Shown here piece after piece: positions 55,000 to 64,000 of a stretch of 64,000 nt of DNA. Both the position numbers and the translations under genes were made by a program. The notes under the pieces were generated by a model. It searched no databases. It saw only the letters and a program-made list of their open reading frames with translations, and was not told the DNA's origin. This DNA comes from an uncultured Gammaproteobacteria bacterium (GTDB taxonomy: Bacteria; Patescibacteriota; Patescibacteriia; UBA9934; GWF2-40-263), in contig CAZIDX010000002.1 of assembly GCA_964538435.1 (NCBI GenBank), positions 41,566 to 105,565 of the forward strand. Direction: 5' to 3'. The first letter of the stretch is position 1, and each line of letters begins with the position of its first letter.

Positions 55000-55286
55000 A
55001 TCATCTCAAATTTTGAATAACAAAGAAAGCCGCTAGCTGATAACACATTGAAAATGTGAATAACTCAACCTCTCTTTAGGTCACACAAAGACCTGCATCA
55101 AAGCCAGAATAACAACCCGCTTTGAACACTTATATTGCACAAAGTCCCTGCTGTCGCATGATTAGACAAATCACTTCTTGACAGCTTTTTGGTAGAAAGG
55201 CTAACGTTAGTGTGCGATTAACACTTACAAGATTTGTCGCTATTCACCTCCCCTGCTTCCAAAGCAGGGTTGAGAACACCAGAAAC

Positions 55287-55315
55287 ATTGACAAACCTTG
55301 AATTAAGTGCTAATT
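55287..55315 (+). promoter_or_regulatory. candidate promoter TTGACA-N17-TAATTT for GC-rich operon
   Basis: Read directly; about 100-nt leader then SD AGAGG. Confidence 0.4.
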
Positions 55316-55417
55316 TCGGCGGCTGTAACCAACCGGAATACAGAAGCCAAAACAAGAAGTTACTTAGCAACCCTCGCCCTTTCCCAAACCAACCCTAGAC
55401 CAAGAGGTAGAGGCCCC

Positions 55418-56266
55418 ATGCCAACCATGGACATTCAAGGCCCCGAGCACGTCTACACGGTCACGCACCGCGTGGGCGAGTGCAGCCACTACCGTCTCTA
55501 CACGTGTCTCCAACAGGACACAGACCGGCAGTGCATCATGATGATCGCGGCCGAGCGTCGCAACAACGCAGACCTCGAGCGCGCCGCGTACCTCCTCAAG
55601 CAACTCCGCAAGGAAGGCGACCTCAACGAGGAAGACTACGCCAAGGATCCCAAGAACGAAGGTCGTATGCTCAACTACCAGCTCGGCTTCCCCGAGGTGA
55701 TGGACAGCTTCATCTTCGAAGAGCAGGATCACCGGCGCATCCTCATCCTGGCGTTCGACAACATCCAGGAGATCGACGGCCTGGTCCCCCTCCTGAACAT
55801 TCGGGAGAAGGACCTCAAGCGCCTCGACATCAAGACCGGCGCGTGGATCCTGGGCAAGGCCCTCAAGACCCTCAAGCTAGCGCACAGCATCGGGATCTCC
55901 ATGGGTACCATGGATGCCTCCCGCATCCTGGTCCAGCTCGACGAGCACTACGTGATCATGTTCGACTGGTGCTACGCCAGGACCGGCACAGACCAGGTCC
56001 CGAGAGACCTGGCACGCCGCGACATCATGAACGTAGCCCGCGCCGTCATCACTGCCTTGGGCGGAGACTGGCGCAGCCGTCACCTCCCCTTCCCCGGCAA
56101 CGAGGAAGGGTACGGCAGGTTCACCGAAATCCTCTTCCGACTCGCTGGCGGAGCACAGACCAGCGCAGCCATGGCTCACCAGACGTTCTACGAGATGGTA
56201 GACGCGGCCTGGGAGCCTGGCTTTCACCCCGCAACCACCCACCCTCTCGAAAAGACAGGAGATTGA
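55418..56266 (+). CDS. protein-kinase-fold protein, probably pseudokinase/atypical kinase; GC-rich
   Basis: LAHSIGISMGTMDASRILV aligns to LHSxGIVHRDLKPSNILV (HRD degenerate), IMFDWCYAR to DFG region, alphaC-like LERAAYLLKQL. Confidence 0.45.
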   Translation: MPTMDIQGPEHVYTVTHRVGECSHYRLYTCLQQDTDRQCIMMIAAERRNNADLERAAYLLKQLRKEGDLNEEDYAKDPKNEGRMLNYQLGFPEVMDSFIFEEQDHRRILILAFDNIQEIDGLVPLLNIREKDLKRLDIKTGAWILGKALKTLKLAHSIGISMGTMDASRILVQLDEHYVIMFDWCYARTGTDQVPRDLARRDIMNVARAVITALGGDWRSRHLPFPGNEEGYGRFTEILFRLAGGAQTSAAMAHQTFYEMVDAAWEPGFHPATTHPLEKTGD

Positions 56267-56268
56267 TC

Positions 56269-57438
56269 ATGGGACGAGGAGTTCTCTCACGAGTAGCACA
56301 CACCAGGACGCGTGACACCGCCACCCGCGGAGGTCGCAGCGCCACCCACCGGGCCGAAGAGCGCGTGCGCATGGGCAAGGGACTCGACGTGTCCGTGGAC
56401 CCCAAGGGGTACCCGCACCTGGGTCCGGTCCGGCTCAGCCTGCCGCGCTTCGACCAGCGTGAAGACGGTCTCTGGGAGCTCACCAGCGGCATGCCCGTCC
56501 CGGTGGAGACCCTGCTCGACGGTACCGGTTCCATGGGGCACGATTTCATCGCCGCCGTCATGGCCGTCCTGCCCGACGCGTTCGATGCGTTCACCTCCGG
56601 AACCATGCCGGTGCTGGGGCGCTACGACGTGCAGATCGCCAACGCCATCTTCGGCGACACGGTCGACACCCACAACGGGCGTCACGTGCTGTGCCGGACC
56701 CAGTTCGAGATGGCCGACAAGATCTCGGTCCAGGTCACGAACCTGGCCCCGACGCACGGTGGTGCCGGCAACGGCAAGGAAGACCCCCAGTTCGGGCTCT
56801 TCGCGGCCGCCTACCTGACCAACGCCAGGCTCTGGAAGTACGGTCTGCGCGGCTACCACTTCGTCTTCACCGACGACAACTCGGTGATGGAGGTCGAGGT
56901 GAGCTGGCTGAAGCGCATCTTCGGGGATGACGTCCTCGAGCGTGCGTGCGAGAACGGCCACGACTTCTCCGGTGTGCGCAGCATCCCGACCCAGCAGGTC
57001 GTGCAGGATCTGCTGAGCCACACCAACGCCTTCGTCTTCCTGCGGCAGGGCAACAGCATCCGCTCCTGGCAGCGCCTCTACGGCAACGACCGCTGCATCG
57101 TCATGGACGACATGCCCGACACCTTCCACCTCTACGAGGCCGTGGTGATCGGGCTGACCGAGGGCATCATCAACCTGGAGACGGCCGAGACCTTCCTGAT
57201 CGAGCACGGCGCCGACCAGCGCCAGGCCCAGCGCATCGTGCACGCGGTCTCGCACATCCCCCTGGGCGCCCAGACCCTGCGCGAGAACTTCCACCGGATC
57301 CCGGTCGCCGGCGATCTGTTCCGCGAGAAGACCGACCTCTGGCCCCTCACCGCGGACGAGATCGCTGCGCACACCGGCGAGGCCTCGGACGGCGCCAGCG
57401 GCTCCAGCGAGGGTAGCGACAAGGTCCAGTGGCTCTAG
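56269..57438 (+). CDS. PP2C-like (PPM) phosphatase-fold or vWA-like protein; GC-rich
   Basis: LLDGTGSMGHDFIAAV resembles PP2C motif-2 VADGMGGHxAG; QREDG resembles RxxNED; GDTVD resembles GDSR; alternative reading as vWA MIDAS DxTxS. Confidence 0.35.
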   Translation: MGRGVLSRVAHTRTRDTATRGGRSATHRAEERVRMGKGLDVSVDPKGYPHLGPVRLSLPRFDQREDGLWELTSGMPVPVETLLDGTGSMGHDFIAAVMAVLPDAFDAFTSGTMPVLGRYDVQIANAIFGDTVDTHNGRHVLCRTQFEMADKISVQVTNLAPTHGGAGNGKEDPQFGLFAAAYLTNARLWKYGLRGYHFVFTDDNSVMEVEVSWLKRIFGDDVLERACENGHDFSGVRSIPTQQVVQDLLSHTNAFVFLRQGNSIRSWQRLYGNDRCIVMDDMPDTFHLYEAVVIGLTEGIINLETAETFLIEHGADQRQAQRIVHAVSHIPLGAQTLRENFHRIPVAGDLFREKTDLWPLTADEIAAHTGEASDGASGSSEGSDKVQWL

Positions 57439-57469
57439 GGACGAGCTGAATCCAGCTCTACGACAACGA

Positions 57470-57500
57470 CCCCGACTAGCGCATGCTAGTCGGGGCTTTC
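57470..57500 (+). terminator. terminator ccccgactagc-gcat-gctagtcgggg-CUUUCC
   Basis: Perfect 11-bp stem. Confidence 0.6.
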
Positions 57501-57563
57501 CATGAGATCATCGTGATAAACACGGTGACATCGTGGTTAGAACCACCAACCCGAGAGGTACAC

Positions 57564-58970
57564 GTGAAGAAGTGTTACATCGTCACCGACCTCGGACCCG
57601 GGGACGGTGGAAAAGGTGGCATCGTCCACCGCATCGCAACCCTGCTGCGAGCCATCTGCATCATCAAGGCAGGCGGCTTCCAAGGCAACCACGGCGTGCA
57701 CACCTCCCGAGGTGAACGCATGGACTTCAGTCAGTGGGGCTGCGGAACCCTCGAAGGAATCCGGACCCACATCTCGACTGACCTCATTGTGAGTCCTGAA
57801 GGACTCCTCAACGAAGCCGATCAGCTCCAGCGCCAGTGCGGAATCAACAACCCCTGGAGCATGCTGACCATCGATGAAAACGCACTGTGCTCAACCGAGT
57901 TCCACGGCGTGGCCTCGCGCATCAAGGAGATGGCCCGCGGTAAAAACCCGCGTGGAACCATCGGATCCGGCGCGGGCCAGTGCCATCGCTACAACCAGAG
58001 CCACCCCAAGCTCTCCATCTTCATGCGCGACCTGCGCGACCCCAAGACCCTGCGCTTCAAGCTCAACCTGATCCGGCTGCACATCGCATCAGATCTCATC
58101 GAGATCATCGAAGGTGGCTTCCTGCCTACGGACAACGAGCGTGTTCAAGACGAACTGAGCTTCATCATGAACCCTCATTCGGTCAACTACGTACTCGAGC
58201 GCTTCCTCATGGTAGGCAGGCTTGCAAACATCGTGGACTCAGACTACATGGCTCGCGAAATCCTCTCGAAGGATGGAGTCGTGGTCGTAGAGTCCTCGCA
58301 CGGTGTCCTCACTGACAACCTCATGGGCTTTGCCCCGCACACCAGCGCGATCCGCACGATCCCGCTCCTGCGCGAAAAACTCATCAAGGAAGCTGGCTAC
58401 GACGGACAGATCGTACATGTGGCCTGCCACCGCGCCTACAACGTGCGCCACGGCGCTGGCCCCATGCCAACAACCGATCCGAGTCTGAACGAAACCCTGC
58501 TCCCAGGCTCGTCCAATGACGAGAACCGCTGGCAAGGACATGTCCGGGTTGGTCCACTCGACCTCCCGCTCCTGCGCTACGCCATCGCGGTCAGCGGCCC
58601 CGAGCTCTTCAATGGCCTGGCTCTGACCTGGTTCGACCAGATCGTGAGAAACAATGTTTGGCACGTGGTGCATCGCTACAGCAGCGGAACCGAAGACCGA
58701 AAGTTCTTCACTGCTGACGGCGAGCTGCGGATCACAGCACTGCCAAGCAAGGCAGAGCAACACGCGTACACGCGCGAACTCGGAGACCAGCTCAGCCGCT
58801 GCGTTCCCGAGATCACCTCCATCCCAATCCCAGACGGACTGAGCCCAGAGGAGCTCTTTCATCTGGTCGAGGACGTCCTCAACAACGCGCTGGGTATCGA
58901 GCTTGCCATGCTCTCGCTCGGCCCCACCGAAACGGACAAGGTCCTCATGGCTCCCAAGAGCCAACGGTAA
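57564..58970 (+). CDS. divergent adenylosuccinate synthetase (PurA)-family protein with substituted substrate-binding motifs; GTG start after SD GAGAGG
   Basis: GDGGKGG (PurA GDEGKGK), GNHGVHT (GGHNAGHT), RAYNVRHGAGPMPT (KAYSTRVGAGPFPT), LSLGPTETDKVLM (ISTGPDRTETM); but TTGRGIGP becomes TIGSGAGQ, GAQG becomes SSHG, GATTGRRRRTGW becomes NRWQGHVRVG. Confidence 0.7.
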   Translation: MKKCYIVTDLGPGDGGKGGIVHRIATLLRAICIIKAGGFQGNHGVHTSRGERMDFSQWGCGTLEGIRTHISTDLIVSPEGLLNEADQLQRQCGINNPWSMLTIDENALCSTEFHGVASRIKEMARGKNPRGTIGSGAGQCHRYNQSHPKLSIFMRDLRDPKTLRFKLNLIRLHIASDLIEIIEGGFLPTDNERVQDELSFIMNPHSVNYVLERFLMVGRLANIVDSDYMAREILSKDGVVVVESSHGVLTDNLMGFAPHTSAIRTIPLLREKLIKEAGYDGQIVHVACHRAYNVRHGAGPMPTTDPSLNETLLPGSSNDENRWQGHVRVGPLDLPLLRYAIAVSGPELFNGLALTWFDQIVRNNVWHVVHRYSSGTEDRKFFTADGELRITALPSKAEQHAYTRELGDQLSRCVPEITSIPIPDGLSPEELFHLVEDVLNNALGIELAMLSLGPTETDKVLMAPKSQR

Positions 58971-58978
58971 CCAAAACA

Positions 58979-59006
58979 CCCGGACGCAACGCGCGCCCGG
59001 GTTTTC
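58979..59006 (+). terminator. terminator cccgg-N12-ccggg-UUUUCUAAUU
   Basis: Read directly. Confidence 0.55.
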
Positions 59007-59035
59007 TAATTCAATCTCATCCCCCATGGAGATGG

Positions 59036-59217: not shown

Positions 59218-61128
59218 TTAACGCTCTAGCTTAGGTAAAAACACACGATCTACATACAACTTCGTCGCAACCTGCCTATACCCCGAATCATAGAACATAC
59301 TCTCCCCATCCATCCGATCCGCCTTTTCTGAATGCAATCCACCAAACCGCGGATTAAACCGCTCGTATCCATTATGCATAAGCCGATACTGAAGCGTATC
59401 CCGCTCCATTTCTTCAATACAAATCGCTCGATGATCAATACCTTGAAACTCTCGCCCCTGATCATACAAATACGGCGCAAGCACTTTCTGCCTGAGTTCT
59501 TGTACAGCCCCAGGCTCTCCATCCCACACTGCCCCAAAGAGCGCATAGGCCCAAATACTTTCTGCGCGGTGCGGATCAAACTCTTCATGATCCTGAATCC
59601 AAAGCTCTTCGCCCCGCTCCTCAAGCCAAAACTCTGTAACCTCTCCACCAATCATCTCATGCCCGAAAAGTTCTGTGAGTGCTTCCCGCATCTTCTTTGT
59701 ATCTTTCTCTTGCATCCCTTCTCGCACAAACACAGCAACATCAAGATCAGAATCCTCCCGACCATACCCCTTGAGCCGAGACCCAAACGGAAGCACAACT
59801 GGATACACATATTTTGAAAGTACAGGGTGATTCTCAAGCTCAGTTGCAAGCCGAGTAACCTCTTTGAGCTCTGGCTTCATGCGCTTCATGTTCTCAGAAA
59901 ACGGCCCAGCAAGCTTTGGTGCTTTAAGCCCGAGATTCTCAAGCTGCATCTTACTCATGACTCCGTGCCTCGTGGCATGGTGGAACGTTTTTGCAAGCAC
60001 TCCACGAAGCTCTTCTGGCCCCTGAGTCCAAAGATCCATAAGTTTAGCTCCATAATCATCAAATAATTCTTGAGCAAGCAAATCGCGATCCTCAGCCAAC
60101 GCATCAATCGCGCGCAAGAGCCCATGAATACAAGCTTCCTGCACAAGCAGATCACCAGAATCAAGAAGTGCATTTCCATTAAATTCTTCATCACGCAGTG
60201 CTTCTGCAATCATCTCCCCTGCCTGCTCTATAGCAATACGTTTTCCATCTTTGCGAAGCCACGCCTCCCGTTTCTTTGTAATGCCATCATGCTTTTCTGA
60301 ATCAATCCGAACAAACTCAGCCTCAAGCCATGTTGCAACACTTCCTGCAGTCACCTCAGCAAGCGATGGTTTCTCGGCGCGCACAGGTACCTTCACACCA
60401 ACCCCCATGCGATCAAGATCAATCTGCTCGATCAAACCTTTTTCAAGAAGCACGGGAATGGTATCTGCCACACTCTGCACCAACAAAGGGTCAGAATCCT
60501 TAAGAAGCTCAAATACATCTCCAGGCTCAAGCCAGCCTTTTTCCATAAGCCCTGGAATAAGGTGAGCTGCCTTTACCACCCGCTCAAGATCTCCGTCCCG
60601 CGTTTCAATATCCATCACATCCCCATCAACAAAGTTCGCGCGCACATCATGTGTGCCCAAGAGCCGATCCCAAGCATGCAAATACTTCTCTCGAAGCGTG
60701 AGCGCTGCATCATCAAGATCACCTGTCTTAATCTTCCAATCCGCATCAGGCAAAAGCTCAAACGGAAGATAGAGCAATACTCTCTGATATTCAGAATCCT
60801 CTTCAAGCATCTTGCTAAGCGACTCATAGAGCTCTGCAACCTGACCCTCAGCAAGCTCACCAAGCTCCACAGCTCGCTGAACAGAAACATCAGGTCGTGA
60901 CAAAGCCGCAAACACCGTGTCGAGTCTCTCACTGAGCTGACGACGCTCCTTAACCTGACGCTGAAACTCAGGATTGTCTACAACTTCCTTTGGTAGCACC
61001 TTCTCAGCACTCCCAACATCTAACAAAACCTCACTCGCTGAGGGTTGAAAATATTGCTCAATTTTGGCCTCTTCGACATGTTTTTCATGTTCTTGTGTCA
61101 TATACGCACAGTGTAGCAGATTCCCCAA
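59218..61128 (-). CDS. large hypothetical protein with C-terminal Pol-beta-type nucleotidyltransferase domain
   Basis: FGSRLKGYGREDSDLDVAVFV fits GSx10DhDh; about 450-aa helical N-terminal region of unknown function. Confidence 0.45.
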   Translation of the reverse strand: MGNLLHCAYMTQEHEKHVEEAKIEQYFQPSASEVLLDVGSAEKVLPKEVVDNPEFQRQVKERRQLSERLDTVFAALSRPDVSVQRAVELGELAEGQVAELYESLSKMLEEDSEYQRVLLYLPFELLPDADWKIKTGDLDDAALTLREKYLHAWDRLLGTHDVRANFVDGDVMDIETRDGDLERVVKAAHLIPGLMEKGWLEPGDVFELLKDSDPLLVQSVADTIPVLLEKGLIEQIDLDRMGVGVKVPVRAEKPSLAEVTAGSVATWLEAEFVRIDSEKHDGITKKREAWLRKDGKRIAIEQAGEMIAEALRDEEFNGNALLDSGDLLVQEACIHGLLRAIDALAEDRDLLAQELFDDYGAKLMDLWTQGPEELRGVLAKTFHHATRHGVMSKMQLENLGLKAPKLAGPFSENMKRMKPELKEVTRLATELENHPVLSKYVYPVVLPFGSRLKGYGREDSDLDVAVFVREGMQEKDTKKMREALTELFGHEMIGGEVTEFWLEERGEELWIQDHEEFDPHRAESIWAYALFGAVWDGEPGAVQELRQKVLAPYLYDQGREFQGIDHRAICIEEMERDTLQYRLMHNGYERFNPRFGGLHSEKADRMDGESMFYDSGYRQVATKLYVDRVFLPKLER

Positions 61129-61161: not shown

Positions 61162-62031
61162 TTATGAAAAGAAATCTTTCAAACCAGCCCAGAACCCTTT
61201 CCTCTTTGCAGACTTCTTTGCGGCCGCCTTTTGCTCTGGAAGGCCCTGCGGCTCAAAATCAGGACTCGCTGCCTCATCCTTCAGTGCCTGCCACTCACCT
61301 CGTGTAAATGCTCGAGCATCGTCTTTTCTTGGCTCTCTCGTGCGCCCCCTACTCGTCTCAGCACCACCTTTCTTTGTGTCATACGCATCCACCTTTCTAT
61401 CAAGCAAAGCCTCAGCCTTCAAAAAGGTTCGCATCTTCTCACCGTCTGTCATGCCCAAACGAATTTTTTGCGCATCAAACCTACTACGATTCGCACCCCA
61501 AACTCTTGAGAGGCTATCCACATCCTCATCTGTTAAATTCTCAATGTGCTCTTCCAAACCAATCACCATATCAAACACTTGGTCTGCCGCCTCATCATAA
61601 CCTTGCTGTGCATCATCGCTATCAGGATTTCTTCCAGCATGACTTTCAGCTCCCTTAAACACATGCACAGCAATCATGAGTTTTTGAATTGCCAAGTCTA
61701 TCTTATTTCGACCTTCGCTATACTCTTGTTCCTCAGCTGCTTTCTGCTCAGCCTCTCTAAGATCTCGTTCCACTGATCTTCGCTTCACATCAACGGCTAA
61801 CTGCCGCTCAACTGGATCCTTACTTGTCTCACTGGGCGCCCTAAGACTGACCCTAGCCCCAGGATCCCCATCTAGCTCGGCAATCCTTGCTTCATTAAAT
61901 GCAAGCAGTCTTTTTCCAATATCCTCCATCTCATCATCCCCCATCCTCTCAGCTGGAGCTTCTTGGCCTCCTTCTGGTTTTTTTCTCTTCCACCCATCGC
62001 CTCCAGATGAGTCTCTTGCGTCAAAATTCAT
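61162..62031 (-). CDS. hypothetical charged protein (289 aa)
   Basis: ORF, coding-like; no motif. Confidence 0.4.
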   Translation of the reverse strand: MNFDARDSSGGDGWKRKKPEGGQEAPAERMGDDEMEDIGKRLLAFNEARIAELDGDPGARVSLRAPSETSKDPVERQLAVDVKRRSVERDLREAEQKAAEEQEYSEGRNKIDLAIQKLMIAVHVFKGAESHAGRNPDSDDAQQGYDEAADQVFDMVIGLEEHIENLTDEDVDSLSRVWGANRSRFDAQKIRLGMTDGEKMRTFLKAEALLDRKVDAYDTKKGGAETSRGRTREPRKDDARAFTRGEWQALKDEAASPDFEPQGLPEQKAAAKKSAKRKGFWAGLKDFFS

Positions 62032-62052: not shown

Positions 62053-64000
62053 TTAATCAAGTACTAATTCTATTCTACGCTTCATAACTATAGGGTCAAC
62101 CTCTTCACCCACACCAAATTCTTCACCCAGATCAAATCGAGAGAACAATGTAAGATCCACATCAATCACATAATCCGCCCAATCATCTCCAAACAACCCG
62201 ATCGCCGTCTCTTCGTCCGGAATATGTCGAATCACAGCGCGATCCGCATCCTCACTTGTTTCAACTACATACACATGCGGCACACTCGGAATCTTCACAA
62301 GCACCACCCCAGGCTTTGGAAGCATAGGAGCACCAAGCGGAATGAGCGAAAGCGTAGCATCAGAAACAAGCCGCACGTCATCAAACCCGTCAGCCCAAGT
62401 CAAAAAGATCTGAAGCGTTGGAAACGGTCGTCGCTTGCCTTGCTCATCAAGATAGTAAACAACCTTGGTGGTCTCACCGGTAATCATGTCACCTGGCTCA
62501 AGCCCCTGAGCCACACCTTGCATAAAGCCTGTGTGTGGAGACTCTGCTTCGATTGGCAGGTCAAACAAGCCTGACCCCTCAGCCTCACTCGGCTCACCAG
62601 CTTCTCCTTCGTTTTCAATCTCATCAACCTCCTCTTCAACCACATCTTCTGTTGAGCTTCCACCTCCCCCACCAGGACTCTCAGCAACTGAAATCGAGAA
62701 TGCATAATCTGATGAATCAAACGTTTCATCAGCCGCATCCTCAAGTGAAGCGCGAACAAACGCACTTGATGTTTCTTCTTCTGGAACTTCCCAATCGTAA
62801 CTTGTTTCACTTGCAAGAACGGTATCAATAAGGTCATACGTAGCACCTGCGTCGTATGAAATGTACAAACCAACATCAGAAGAGGAAGAATAATTCGTTG
62901 TTGTCCAAGTTATGCTCTCAATGTTTCCAGAAACCACCACCTCTCCTCCCGTTGGATTGAGTAGCACAATCGTTGCAACAGGATCATCTGTCTCATACCC
63001 AGCGGTATTCTCTGCAGTAAACACCCAAGCTGTTTTACTAACAATACCAGCAAAATCATTGGTTGCTGCATCATCAAAAGCTGTTGCATTAATGAGCACA
63101 TAGTACTCTTCACCACCATCAAACTCGCCTGATGGATTCACTGTGATTGTATCGCTTCCACCGGCAGAAACCTGCCCACCAGTCACATCAATGGTCTCAA
63201 ACTCAGAATCATCTGAATTTACTTTTACTTCAATGTTTCCTGACCCAATATTCACAGACTCAGAAAACGTCATTACAAGGTTTGTGGTCGTTGATACATC
63301 ATCACTGCCATTTGCTGGCGTAAGCGCGATAATAACCGGTGCAGCAGCATCATTTAGAGTCTCTCCTGAAACATCCGAAAGATTTGAACCAGCGCCATCA
63401 TGAATTGAATTTGCTGTGCCGTTTGATGCATCATATGAAATCGTAAACGACAAATCTGTATCCCCTGCAATTGCGTTTGCAATTGTAAGCTCCAAAATAT
63501 TTGTTGCTGCAGAGCACGAAGAAACAACAATTGCACCAGCATCTACTCCTCCAAATGAATAATCCGCAACCTCGCACTCATCTAGTGTGATATTTTTGTT
63601 AAAAACCAAATCTACCTGATCCACCTGCCCATCCGTATTGATATCTTTGTATTTACCGTAATTCAGAACCAAAAGTTGAATTGGAGTAAACACTCCTGTG
63701 CTCCCGTCATCCGCAGTATCTGTCGCGCCAGTTGGCCCACCGTCTCCACCAGGAGCAACACCAGCACTAACCAAACCAGCAAAAAACGAACTTGAATTTG
63801 TTGCATACTCTACAGCGGCAAGACCTCCACCACCTCCACCACCTTCAATTGAACCATTTCCATCCGAACCATCACCACCCATAACTGAAAGGGTGCCTGT
63901 GGTACCTGAAAGAATTCCTGACACAGTAATGTACACAGAACCTCCAGAACCACCACCGTGCGCTCGGTTAGACCCAGTGTCATAAGCATCACCCCCCTCA
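62053..64000 (-). CDS. very large Gly/Thr/Asp-rich surface protein, N-terminus beyond window end (no stop in frame through position 64000)
   Basis: Repetitive beta-rich segments (Ig-like), GGGGGGG runs, acidic linker; manual check shows frame stays open to window edge. Confidence 0.5.
   Translation of the reverse strand, partial: EGGDAYDTGSNRAHGGGSGGSVYITVSGILSGTTGTLSVMGGDGSDGNGSIEGGGGGGGLAAVEYATNSSSFFAGLVSAGVAPGGDGGPTGATDTADDGSTGVFTPIQLLVLNYGKYKDINTDGQVDQVDLVFNKNITLDECEVADYSFGGVDAGAIVVSSCSAATNILELTIANAIAGDTDLSFTISYDASNGTANSIHDGAGSNLSDVSGETLNDAAAPVIIALTPANGSDDVSTTTNLVMTFSESVNIGSGNIEVKVNSDDSEFETIDVTGGQVSAGGSDTITVNPSGEFDGGEEYYVLINATAFDDAATNDFAGIVSKTAWVFTAENTAGYETDDPVATIVLLNPTGGEVVVSGNIESITWTTTNYSSSSDVGLYISYDAGATYDLIDTVLASETSYDWEVPEEETSSAFVRASLEDAADETFDSSDYAFSISVAESPGGGGGSSTEDVVEEEVDEIENEGEAGEPSEAEGSGLFDLPIEAESPHTGFMQGVAQGLEPGDMITGETTKVVYYLDEQGKRRPFPTLQIFLTWADGFDDVRLVSDATLSLIPLGAPMLPKPGVVLVKIPSVPHVYVVETSEDADRAVIRHIPDEETAIGLFGDDWADYVIDVDLTLFSRFDLGEEFGVGEEVDPIVMKRRIELVLD

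What the first reader, a model, noticed from the sequence alone, without database searches (positions are those of the whole stretch)
57564..58970. PurA-family enzyme with rewired active site
The protein aligns with E. coli PurA along its whole length, from the P-loop through GGHN and KAYSTRVGAGPFP to ISTGPDRTE. Three catalytic or substrate motifs are replaced:
- the IMP-phosphate loop TTGRGIGP becomes TIGSGAGQ;
- GAQG (Gln224) becomes SSHG;
- the aspartate-binding GATTGRRRRTGW becomes NRWQGHVRVG.

The P-loop is GDGGKGG, losing the Glu and second Lys of GDEGKGK. Loss of Arg303/Arg305 equivalents argues against canonical adenylosuccinate synthesis and for a different acceptor or nucleotide. That would parallel phage PurZ, or ligases that use an NTP-dependent phosphoryl intermediate. 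The window shows no canonical purA, but the window is too small to conclude anything from that.
Basis: partly seen in the sequence, partly recalled or inferred. Interest (0 to 1): 0.7.

Follow-up and report, generated by a model that had tools for sequence, protein, structure and literature searches.

The report
Rewired PurA-like ligase in NAD-regulon operon
This gene encodes a relative of the purine enzyme adenylosuccinate synthetase that keeps its GTP-using chemistry but has lost the sites for its normal substrates; it always travels with a partner protein in tiny symbiotic bacteria and large phages, next to NAD-recycling genes, so it probably catalyses an undescribed reaction.

Summary
Window 57564-58970 (+) encodes a 468-aa full-length PurA-fold protein (Pfam PF00709, 101 bits). 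It scores far below every adenylosuccinate-synthase equivalog cut-off (68 vs 402 bits).

In 200 homologues the GTP and phosphoryl-transfer residues are kept: Asp13, Lys16, His41, Asp333, Ser414. The IMP-phosphate ligands, Gln224 and the aspartate loop are replaced in one fixed way.

It is not a one-off. It is the third gene of an operon (pseudokinase-like, vWA-like, PurA-like) conserved in order in about 80 Patescibacteria species, usually followed by a SAM/HhH-domain gene and a convergent NTase gene. A vWA-like gene directly upstream of a PurA-like gene also recurs in at least 70 viral contigs and three cultured large phages.

The cluster repeatedly lies among NAD genes (nrtR, nadA/B/E, pncA/B, ADP-ribosylglycohydrolase). 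A 21-bp NrtR-type palindrome, TTAGTGT-N7-ACACTAA, precedes both those genes and this operon, including window 55207-55227.

Best reading: a GTP-dependent PurA-type ligase with a new acceptor and a new amine, working with its vWA partner in NAD/ADP-ribose homeostasis. The reaction itself is unknown. I found no description of the module in the searchable literature.

The parts
55178..55183 (+). TTGACA -35-like hexamer just upstream of the operator
   Evidence: Read directly from the sequence. The operator begins 24 nt downstream, so it would overlap the -10/+1 region. This is inference only. The consensus scan listed a different, weaker site at 55109-55136.
55207..55227 (.). Candidate NrtR operator: 21-bp palindrome TTAGTGTGCGATTAACACTTA, one mismatch to TTAGTGT-N7-ACACTAA
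   Evidence: It is the only match with up to 3 mismatches in the 64-kb window. The same palindrome precedes the kinase-like gene in about 19 CPR loci, and precedes nrtR, nadB, nadE, pncA and ARH genes. There were 51 sites against 12.7 expected from shuffles. It fits the published NrtR box: 21-bp palindrome with core GT-N7-AC (PMC2330246).
55418..56266 (+). Pseudokinase-like protein, first gene of the operon. The longest ORF starts at 55307; ATG 55418 has a GAGG Shine-Dalgarno-like sequence upstream.
   Evidence: A profile of 22 homologues hits the catalytic-loop/DWG region of CK2-alpha and other protein kinases (E 1e-7). It also hits PHROG 3043 'kinase'. The HRD Asp is absent in CPR members and in viral members, which read H-G-A. 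The gene is conserved upstream of the vWA gene in about 79 loci.
56269..57438 (+). vWA-fold partner protein with an intact MIDAS-like D-x-T-x-S motif, an invariant N-terminal Met-Gly, and an acidic disordered tail ending in W-L
57564..58970 (+). PurA-superfamily protein: GTP and phosphotransfer site kept, IMP-phosphate and aspartate sites replaced
58975..59005 (.). GC-rich hairpin between the convergent PurA-like and NTase genes; terminator-like
   Evidence: A T-run was scored on the minus strand.
59218..61128 (-). Convergent 636-aa protein: N-terminal alpha-solenoid plus C-terminal Pol-beta-type nucleotidyltransferase (GSRLKGYG..SDLDVAVF)

Best explanation
The gene encodes a member of a distinct branch of the PurA (adenylosuccinate synthetase) superfamily that is not an adenylosuccinate synthetase.

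Shown:
- The fold is PurA along the whole length.
- The residues that bind GTP and transfer its gamma-phosphate to an acceptor oxygen are conserved: P-loop Gly/Lys16, Asp13, His41, guanine-specific Asp333 and Ser414.
- The residues that hold the IMP 5'-phosphate (Thr129, Arg143), the IMP base (Gln224) and L-aspartate (Thr300/301, Arg303-305) are replaced by a different but equally invariant set: Ile/Val, Glu/Asp, His, a new His at position 273, and an N-R-W/Y-Q-G loop.
- The gene is always preceded by a vWA-fold protein gene and nearly always by a pseudokinase-like gene.
- In Patescibacteria the operon carries an NrtR-type operator and sits among NAD biosynthesis and salvage genes.
- Related vWA+PurA-like pairs are common in large phages, sometimes inside phage NAD-salvage islands.

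Inferred:
- The enzyme still does PurA-type chemistry: GTP-dependent O-phosphorylation of an acceptor, then displacement of phosphate by an amine. Both the acceptor and the nucleophile are new.
- It works as a complex with the vWA partner, which may replace the second PurA subunit that normally supplies Arg143.
- It is switched on with the NAD regulon when ADP-ribose signals that NAD is being consumed.
- It therefore contributes to NAD or ADP-ribose homeostasis.

My most specific guess, at low confidence, is that the invariant N-terminal glycine amine of the vWA partner, or nicotinamide, takes the place of aspartate.
For: Fold and family.

Not an equivalog: (68 bits vs 402).

Residue conservation in 200 members. 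Alignments.

Separate clade.

Conserved five-gene order in about 80 species spanning Uhrbacteria, Paceibacterota, Saccharibacteria, Peribacteria, Falkowbacteria and others.

vWA fold. Pseudokinase.

Phage module: Bixzunavirus, Vibrio phage Va1 and Rhizobium phage RHph_Y65, 80 IMG/VR loci.

NAD neighbours:
- 22 of about 82 CPR loci.
- Gene orders such as nrtR-nadB-nadA-kin-vwa-purAL-X, nrtR->kin, and nadE-nrtR-NTase.
- Viral L155: NAPRTase ... vWA - PurA-like - NadE ... PncA.

Shared 21-bp operator, including the window copy. It matches the NrtR-box definition in PMC2330246.

A canonical PurA coexists with the PurA-like gene in one Saccharibacteria locus, L028, so the family is not simply the lineage's PurA.

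The N-terminal Met-Gly of the partner is invariant from CPR to phages.
Against: - No biochemical data exist, and neither the acceptor nor the nucleophile is identified.
- Conserved catalytic residues are also compatible with a GTPase that has no second substrate.
- The window itself has no NAD gene and no nrtR within 64 kb. Its NAD link rests on the operator alone.
- About 70% of CPR loci show no NAD gene within 10 kb. Phage neighbours are as often DNA/RNA ligases, TROVE or RecA as NAD genes.
- Operator assignment to NrtR is by motif shape and position, not by binding.
- The NJ tree is crude, has no support values and only three outgroup sequences.
- The elevated GC3 of the operon is unexplained and could reflect something the model does not cover.
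Confidence: 0.7

Rival explanations
1. It is a pseudoenzyme or regulatory GTPase. The PurA fold has been recruited as a GTP-binding switch in a vWA-pseudokinase signalling or assembly complex, analogous to MoxR-vWA pairs, and does no ligation chemistry.
For: Both substrate sites of PurA are lost. The partner kinase is itself catalytically dead. vWA proteins usually act as protein-protein adaptors for P-loop NTPases (established knowledge; MoxR-vWA pairs are mentioned in PMC7824862). The NTase neighbour has a large alpha-solenoid scaffold.
Against: The remodelled pocket is as invariant as the catalytic residues: His224, His273, the N-R-W-Q-G loop and Arg328 are fixed in about 200/200 members. 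That argues for a specific bound ligand. Asp13 and His41, which serve acceptor deprotonation and phosphotransfer rather than nucleotide binding, are fully kept. PurA-like is also the most conserved protein of the cluster, with mean pairwise identity 56% against 36-48% for the others.
Confidence: 0.15
2. It modifies or repairs a base in a nucleic acid, for example re-amination or derivatisation of a 6-oxopurine in RNA or DNA. The polymer chain would pass where the IMP 5'-phosphate clamp and the aspartate loop used to close the site.
For: All four 5'-phosphate ligands are altered and the aspartate loop is shortened. Phage neighbours include ATP-dependent DNA ligase (11 loci), RNA ligase-HNH (4), TROVE/Ro60-like (7), RecA, and polynucleotide kinase and exonuclease. 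The CPR cluster includes a SAM/HhH-like protein and an NTase.
Against: The regulatory and neighbourhood signal in CPR points to NAD genes, not repair genes. Large phages cluster many early or auxiliary genes, so ligase neighbours may be coincidental. No nucleic-acid-binding domain lies in the PurA-like protein or in its obligate vWA partner.
Confidence: 0.08
3. It is a genuine but highly diverged adenylosuccinate synthetase, or a PurZ-like aspartate-dependent enzyme acting on (d)GMP, serving purine salvage in organisms that lack de novo synthesis.
For: Annotated 'adenylosuccinate synthetase' in public records, and the phage homologues fall in the PHROG named after PurZ. The fold is full-length and the catalytic Asp and His are present.
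Against: The aspartate-binding Thr300/Thr301/Arg303/Arg305 are absent in 200/200 members, and Gln224 and Thr129 are replaced. The score is 68 bits against a cut-off of 402. A canonical PurA coexists in L028. phiVC8 PurZ keeps an Arg-rich loop and lacks the guanine-binding segment that this family keeps. No DatZ-, MazZ- or DpoZ-type gene was identified among the neighbours that were annotated. Strict linkage to vWA and pseudokinase genes and to an NrtR box is not expected for purine salvage.
Confidence: 0.05

Closest known systems
Adenylosuccinate synthetase PurA (EC 6.3.4.4; Pfam PF00709; E. coli structures such as 1ADE and 1CG0)
   Same: Same fold over the full length. Same P-loop, catalytic Asp13 and His41, Lys16, and guanine-specific Asp333/Ser414. 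It therefore most likely shares the first half-reaction: GTP gamma-phosphate transfer to an acceptor oxygen.
   Different: About 22% identity. IMP 5'-phosphate ligands are changed (Thr129->Ile/Val, Arg143->Glu/Asp, Asn38->Gln). Gln224->His and Val273->His. The aspartate loop GATTGRRRR is replaced by the shorter NRWQG-x-V-R. It has two insertions, an obligate vWA partner, and an NAD rather than a purine genomic context.
PurZ / PurZ0 of Z-genome phages (phiVC8, S-2L; 2-aminoadenine DNA)
   Same: A phage-associated PurA paralogue with altered substrate specificity. Both are placed in the same PHROG (phrog_1211, 123 bits).
   Different: PurZ keeps an Arg-rich loop at the aspartate-loop position and, per PMC12884076, condenses aspartate with dGMP using ATP. 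In the alignment it lacks the guanine-recognition segment. PurZ is described there with DatZ, MazZ and DpoZ. This family keeps the GTP determinants, loses the aspartate site, and travels with vWA and pseudokinase genes instead. In the NJ tree PurZ is the most distant sequence.
Phage 'PurA-like adenylosuccinate synthetase' of Bixzunavirus (Bxz1/I3-type mycobacteriophages), Vibrio phage Va1 and Rhizobium phage RHph_Y65; uncharacterised
   Same: True relatives at about 30% identity. They share His273, the WQG loop with the 4-residue deletion, loss of Arg143, and a vWA-like gene directly upstream, often with the H-G-A pseudokinase as well.
   Different: Phage forms still have Gln224, Gly40 and often Glu14. 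They lack the SAM/HhH gene and the NTase gene. The CPR family is a derived, monophyletic sub-branch.
Phage NAD+ reconstitution pathways NARP1 (Adps+Namat), NARP2 (Nampt+Nmnat) and NARP3 (PnuC+NadR-like)
   Same: Auxiliary modules in phages linked to NAD supply. The vWA+PurA-like pair lies inside or beside NAD-salvage genes in several phage contigs (L089, L093, L155, L156).
   Different: No homology to any NARP enzyme. No activity is shown. The NARP papers searched do not mention it.
MoxR-type AAA+ ATPase / vWA chaperone pairs
   Same: A P-loop NTPase gene coupled to a MIDAS-bearing vWA gene.
   Different: The NTPase here is a PurA-fold enzyme, not an AAA+ ATPase, and it keeps residues for phosphoryl transfer to a substrate.

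Membership tests
Adenylosuccinate synthetase (PurA, EC 6.3.4.4) | PF00709 domain over the full length | tested here: met
   101 bits, E 7e-29, residues 13-454 against profile positions 8-410 of 416. PDB PurA chains match at E 1e-9 to 1e-7.
Adenylosuccinate synthetase (PurA, EC 6.3.4.4) | Reaches the NCBIfam/TIGRFAM equivalog score | tested here: not met
   NF002223: 68 bits against cut-off 402. TIGR00184: 58 against 396.
Adenylosuccinate synthetase (PurA, EC 6.3.4.4) | GTP site and phosphotransfer residues (G12-K16 P-loop, Asp13, His41, Asp333, Ser414) | tested here: met
   D13 198/200, K16 199/200, H41 200/200, D333 200/200, S414 193/200.
Adenylosuccinate synthetase (PurA, EC 6.3.4.4) | IMP ligands Asn38, Thr129, Thr239, Arg143' and Gln224 | tested here: not met
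   N38->Q 197/200; T129->I/V 198/200; R143->E/D in 164/200 (Gly in 11; Lys in the window protein); Q224->H 200/200; T239->S 195/200.
Adenylosuccinate synthetase (PurA, EC 6.3.4.4) | Aspartate-binding loop (Thr300, Thr301, Arg303, Arg305) | tested here: not met
   T300->K/E, T301->V/I, and G302-R305 deleted in 200/200. One Arg is kept.
Adenylosuccinate synthetase (PurA, EC 6.3.4.4) | Catalyses IMP + Asp + GTP -> adenylosuccinate | not testable with these tools
   Needs an enzyme assay or purA complementation.
PurZ (2-aminoadenine pathway) | Aspartate site kept, guanine-specific segment absent (ATP use), gene linked to datZ/mazZ/dpoZ | tested here: not met
   Opposite residue pattern to phiVC8 PurZ in the alignment. 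None of those genes was identified among the neighbours that were annotated. PurZ properties are taken from PMC12884076.
vWA-linked PurA-like module (defined here) | vWA-fold gene with N-terminal Met-Gly directly upstream; His273 and W/Y-Q-G loop in the PurA-like protein | tested here: met
vWA-linked PurA-like module (defined here) | Kinase-fold gene lacking the HRD aspartate in the same operon | tested here: met
   Window 55418-56266.
NrtR regulon | 21-bp palindromic operator with GT-N7-AC core upstream of the operon, shared with NAD genes and nrtR | tested here: met
   Window 55207-55227. There were 51 sites against 12.7 expected, nearly all upstream of kin, nrtR, nadB, nadE, pncA or ARH genes. 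The definition comes from PMC2330246.
NrtR regulon | nrtR gene present in the same genome, and NrtR binding relieved by ADP-ribose | tested here: inconclusive
   No nrtR within the 64-kb window. nrtR is adjacent to the cluster in at least 10 other CPR loci. Binding is not testable here.
Known anti-phage defence systems (PADLOC-DB), including the TerY-P vWA/kinase triad | Match to a defence-system protein model | tested here: not met
   No PADLOC hit at E <= 0.1 for the three operon proteins.

The most novel reading that the evidence does not exclude
The vWA + PurA-like pair is a new enzyme system shared by Patescibacteria and large phages that handles an NAD breakdown product by PurA-type chemistry. 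Two versions fit the evidence.

(a) It regenerates NAD+ or a precursor with GTP. One example is activation of ADP-ribose or a nicotinate nucleotide, followed by attack of nicotinamide or ammonia. That would be a fourth NAD-reconstitution route.

(b) It covalently joins a nucleotide to the invariant N-terminal glycine amine of the vWA partner, with the glycine standing in for aspartate. That would create a protein-nucleotide conjugate of a kind not yet described.
Probability: 0.15. Interest if true: 0.9.

Novelty: new variant of a known kind. Interest (0 to 1): 0.75.

Why it matters
- PurA is a textbook enzyme with, so far, one known functional offshoot (PurZ), which led to the discovery of how Z-genome DNA is made. 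Here is a second, larger offshoot with a fully remodelled substrate pocket, invariant across phylum-level distances.
- It appears in many species of a bacterial radiation that makes up a large share of uncultured diversity, and it is annotated everywhere as 'adenylosuccinate synthetase' or 'hypothetical'. Metabolic reconstructions of Patescibacteria that count it as purA would therefore be wrong.
- Its link to the NrtR operator and to NAD-salvage islands in phages gives a concrete, testable hypothesis. NAD depletion and reconstitution is currently a central theme in phage-host conflict.
- The obligate vWA and pseudokinase partners suggest a multi-protein enzyme unlike any known purine or NAD enzyme.

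Tried and rejected
- **Defence system:** no PADLOC match for the three proteins. The syntenic, largely vertical distribution is unlike a defence island.
- **Recent horizontal transfer as the cause of the GC-rich block:** rejected. The same GC/GC3 elevation is seen in the operon in most CPR loci. PurA-like identities also track those of the normal-GC NTase gene (r 0.63; window vs L001 is 69-81% for all four proteins).
- **PurZ or Z-genome function:** rejected on residues and context.
- **Literature:** nine searches found no description of this family or module. The NARP1/2 preprint and the jumbo-phage comparative paper do not mention it, and NARP3 is an unrelated PnuC + NadR-like pair.
- **Sequence-profile searches of the vWA-like protein** against PDB and Pfam gave nothing. 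Only structure prediction identified the fold.
- **Foldseek against afdb50** was unavailable.
- **Gene X (SAM/HhH-like)** gave only weak hits, and the gene is absent from this window.
- **Looking for one missing NAD step that the module could replace:** inconsistent. NadC is missing near L002, while NadD is missing near L155 and L040.
Full report
**1. The observation**

The window has an ORF at 57483-58970 (+).

The 468-aa product matches Pfam PF00709 (adenylosuccinate synthetase) over essentially its whole length (101 bits, E 7e-29). Its best solved relatives are PurA enzymes. Against NCBI's equivalog models for adenylosuccinate synthase it scores 68 and 58 bits, where 402 and 396 are required.

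I then aligned 200 family members and counted residues at the positions known from E. coli PurA structures.

Kept, all serving GTP binding and phosphotransfer:

| E. coli residue | Count in family |
|---|---|
| Asp13 | 198/200 |
| Lys16 | 199/200 |
| His41 | 200/200 |
| Asp333 | 200/200 |
| Ser414 | 193/200 |

Replaced in a fixed way:
- Glu14->Gly, Lys18->Gly, Asn38->Gln, Gly40->Ser, Thr42->Gly
- Thr129->Ile/Val, Arg131->Thr, Arg143->Glu/Asp
- Gln224->His (200/200), Val273->His (200/200)
- Thr300/Thr301->Lys/Val, and a four-residue deletion removing Gly302-Arg305
- Lys331->Trp

One Arg of the cluster survives and is invariant. No second PurA-family ORF exists in the window.

**2. It is a large family, not a degenerate copy**

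The protein database returned more than 1000 hits. The best 120 are 50-57% identical proteins of about 460 aa, and those that carry a name are mostly from Patescibacteria (Uhrbacteria, Spechtbacteria, Pacebacteria, Parcubacteria and others), annotated 'adenylosuccinate synthetase' or 'hypothetical'.

A scan of one genome per species found 139 confirmed loci from two motif patterns. I fetched 80 of them. They span Saccharibacteria, Paceibacterota, Peribacteria, Falkowbacteria, Wildermuthbacteria, Daviesbacteria, Moranbacteria and more.

In one Saccharibacteria locus (L028) a canonical PurA, with GDEGKG and an Arg-rich GATTKRARR loop, lies 8 kb from the PurA-like gene. The family is therefore not simply the lineage's PurA.

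**3. Conserved operon**

A local jackhmmer analysis of the fetched loci shows an almost invariant order:
1. a kinase-like gene (about 270 aa)
2. a gene of about 375 aa
3. the PurA-like gene
4. a gene of about 400 aa ('X', in two subtypes)
5. on the opposite strand and convergent, a gene of about 600 aa with a Pol-beta nucleotidyltransferase motif

The window has all of these except X, as do L001 (its 75%-identical relative), L008, L012, L021, L022, L045 and L060.

What each partner is:
- **Kinase-like protein.** It has a protein-kinase fold by profile search (CK2-alpha catalytic loop and DWG, E 1e-7). It lacks the HRD aspartate, and in CPR members also the VAIK lysine. Viral homologues read H-G-A at that position. 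It is a pseudokinase throughout.
- **Gene X.** It has a weak SAM/HhH-like N-terminus.
- **The convergent protein.** It is an alpha-solenoid followed by the NTase domain.

PurA-like is the most conserved of the set, at 56% mean pairwise identity against 36-48% for the others. One database protein (P0415, 679 aa) fuses the kinase-like and vWA-like parts. This may be a gene-call merge.

**4. Phage relatives**

The window protein hits 219 phage records at about 30% identity. Of these, 202 are Mycobacterium phages; the 25 listed are Bixzunavirus-type phages (Mangeria, I3, LRRHood, Sebata and others).

In phage Mangeria the order is kinase - hypothetical (the vWA-like protein) - small ORF - 'PurA-like'. 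The vWA-like protein also lies directly upstream of an 'adenylosuccinate synthase' gene in Vibrio phage Va1 and Rhizobium phage RHph_Y65.

A scan of IMG/VR gave at least 544 confirmed stretches. In the 80 fetched loci the PurA-like gene has a vWA-like gene nearby, almost always just upstream, in all but about seven, and most of those seven are cut at the contig end. A kinase-like gene was detected in about 35 of them. Many of these contigs are 100-490 kb long.

Phage forms share His273 and the W-Q-G loop with its deletion, but keep Gln224 and Gly40.

A crude NJ tree places E. coli PurA and the canonical L028 PurA outside. All vWA-linked PurA-likes form one clade, with the Patescibacteria family monophyletic and nested among viral sequences.

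The vWA-like family has 638 clusters at 50% identity with E <= 1e-3, and 87 with E <= 1e-30.

**5. A striking feature of the partner**

In all 21 aligned CPR and phage members, and in about 74 of 78 viral homologues, the vWA-like protein begins Met-Gly. The motif is M-G-x-x-x-[aromatic/Leu]-[Ser/Thr/Asp/Asn], even though overall identity is only about 20-25%. The C-terminus is an acidic, disordered tail ending in W-L in CPR members, and usually in Leu in phages.

An invariant N-terminal glycine implies a functional free alpha-amine or a docking motif. I cannot test which.

**6. Link to NAD metabolism**

I clustered the genes flanking the five-gene block in the CPR loci. The recurrent families are:

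| Family | Loci |
|---|---|
| NrtR (Nudix + winged helix) | 13 |
| ADP-ribosylglycohydrolase | 8 |
| Isochorismatase / PncA-like | 7 |
| Glutamine-dependent NAD synthase | 7 |
| AAA_28 + CYTH (AAA_28 is the family I recall as including the NadR ribosylnicotinamide-kinase domain; not checked here) | 6 |
| NAPRTase | 5 |

With seed searches, 22 of about 82 independent CPR loci carry at least one NAD-related neighbour, in many different lineages.

Gene orders are telling:
- nrtR-nadB-nadA-kin-vwa-purAL-X, all on one strand (L002)
- nrtR immediately upstream of the kinase-like gene (L013, L024, L055; divergent in L037)
- nadE-nrtR-NTase co-directional (L040, and similar in L036 and L031)
- pncB-pncA and ARH just upstream of the kinase-like gene (L018, L040, L042)

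Seven viral loci also carry NAD genes next to the module. The clearest is L155: NAPRTase - DUF7831 - two small ORFs - vWA - PurA-like - NadE - small ORF - PncA-like.

**7. A shared operator**

I searched the upstream regions for inverted repeats. The top hit was TAGTGT-N7-ACACTA.

The 21-bp palindrome TTAGTGT-N7-ACACTAA, allowing up to 2 mismatches, occurs 51 times in 2.46 Mb of fetched loci, against 12.7 in shuffles. Nearly all sites lie upstream of one of these:
- the kinase-like gene, in about 19 CPR loci
- nrtR, nadB, nadE, pncA or ARH
- the NTase gene, in three loci

In the 64-kb window the only match with up to 3 mismatches is 55207-55227 (TTAGTGTGCGATTAACACTTA, one mismatch). It lies 24 nt downstream of a TTGACA hexamer and about 190 nt upstream of the kinase-like gene's ATG at 55418.

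Rodionov et al. describe NrtR boxes as 21-bp palindromes with a conserved GT-N7-AC core. They report that ADP-ribose releases NrtR from DNA, and they note nrtR-draG loci (PMC2330246). The motif found here fits that description.

I therefore assign the operon to the NrtR (NAD) regulon. The assignment is by motif and position only.

**8. Mechanism**

Shown:
- PurA fold
- intact GTP and phosphotransfer machinery
- remodelled but invariant acceptor and nucleophile pockets
- obligate genomic coupling to a MIDAS-bearing vWA protein and a pseudokinase
- an NrtR-type operator and NAD-gene neighbourhoods

Inferred:
- The enzyme still phosphorylates an acceptor oxygen with GTP, and an amine then displaces the phosphate. 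The acceptor is not IMP held in the PurA manner, because Thr129 and the trans-acting Arg143 are gone. The amine is not aspartate.
- The aromatic and amide-rich N-R-W/Y-Q-G loop and the two new histidines form the new site.
- The vWA partner is a subunit, and possibly the co-substrate through its N-terminal glycine.
- Expression rises when ADP-ribose signals NAD consumption.

Candidate reactions include:
- GTP-driven re-formation of NAD+ or a precursor from ADP-ribose or nicotinate nucleotides
- nucleotide conjugation to the partner's N-terminus

I cannot discriminate between these. Each is individually unlikely, and together I put them at about 0.15.

**9. Rivals**

- A regulatory GTPase or pseudoenzyme in a vWA-pseudokinase complex (0.15). 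This is disfavoured by the invariance of the remodelled pocket and of Asp13 and His41.
- A nucleic-acid base-modifying or repair enzyme (0.08). It is suggested by ligase, TROVE, RecA, Pnk and exonuclease neighbours in phages and by the HhH and NTase genes in CPR.
- A true adenylosuccinate or PurZ-type synthetase (0.05). It is contradicted by residues, scores, the coexisting canonical PurA, and context.

**10. Novelty and value**

I found no paper describing this family or the module. It is a new functional variant within a known superfamily, embedded in what looks like a new multi-protein system.

It would correct a widespread mis-annotation in Patescibacteria metabolic reconstructions. It also offers a testable entry into NAD/ADP-ribose biology shared by ultra-small symbionts and large phages.

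Noticed in passing
window 55300-59000, and the same genes in most CPR loci (L001-L086): The kinase-like, vWA-like and PurA-like genes, and gene X where present, have much higher GC3 than their surroundings. In the window, GC3 is 0.76-0.91 against 0.33-0.48 for neighbours. Family means are 0.49-0.64 against 0.42 for the adjacent NTase gene. This holds across lineages and is not explained by recent transfer. It could reflect very high expression or another constraint.
   Followed up: partly
L001 5718-6548(-) and 6614-7699(-); L170 3075-3863; window 56287-57372(-) and 58239-59027(-): Public gene calls in this GC3-rich block pick long antisense ORFs instead of the real kinase-like, vWA-like and PurA-like genes. 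The operon is therefore partly mis-annotated in deposited genomes.
   Followed up: partly
Bixzunavirus records such as RoMag, Koguma, Janiyra, ET08 and Pinkcreek; BFVD hit A0A3G3M5V4, 595 aa: In some Bixzunaviruses the vWA-like gene matches in two pieces spread over about 1780 bp instead of 1017 bp, and the Mycobacterium phage Sauce protein is 595 aa. This looks like an intein or another insertion inside the vWA-like gene.
   Followed up: no
L038 5220-6647(-) and 6771-7778(-): One Patescibacteria contig carries a second, phage-type vWA + PurA-like pair on the opposite strand, right next to the CPR-type operon. It could be a paralogue or a prophage remnant. In the NJ tree it sits among the sequences nearest the CPR clade.
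   Followed up: partly
P0415 (679 aa): A single database protein joins the kinase-like and vWA-like parts in one chain. This would support a physical complex, but it may be a merged gene call, since the two genes often overlap by 4 nt.
   Followed up: partly
window 55251-55269: A perfect 8-bp hairpin (CCCTGCTT-CCA-AAGCAGGG) lies in the roughly 190-nt leader between the candidate operator and the kinase-like gene start. Its function is unknown.
   Followed up: no
viral loci L093, L097, L098 (contigs L093 350 kb and L098 407 kb; L097 is an 8.6-kb contig): These IMG/VR 'viral' contigs carry an NrtR homologue very similar to the CPR one (E about 1e-82) beside the vWA + PurA-like pair. They may be huge phages of Patescibacteria hosts or misclassified cellular contigs.
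   Followed up: no
window 61162-62031(-) and 62053-63936(-); L001 11626-16152: A 289-aa acidic, Lys-rich protein with no family match and a Big_5-domain protein follow the NTase gene in both the window and its relative L001. They are not part of the wider conserved cluster.
   Followed up: no
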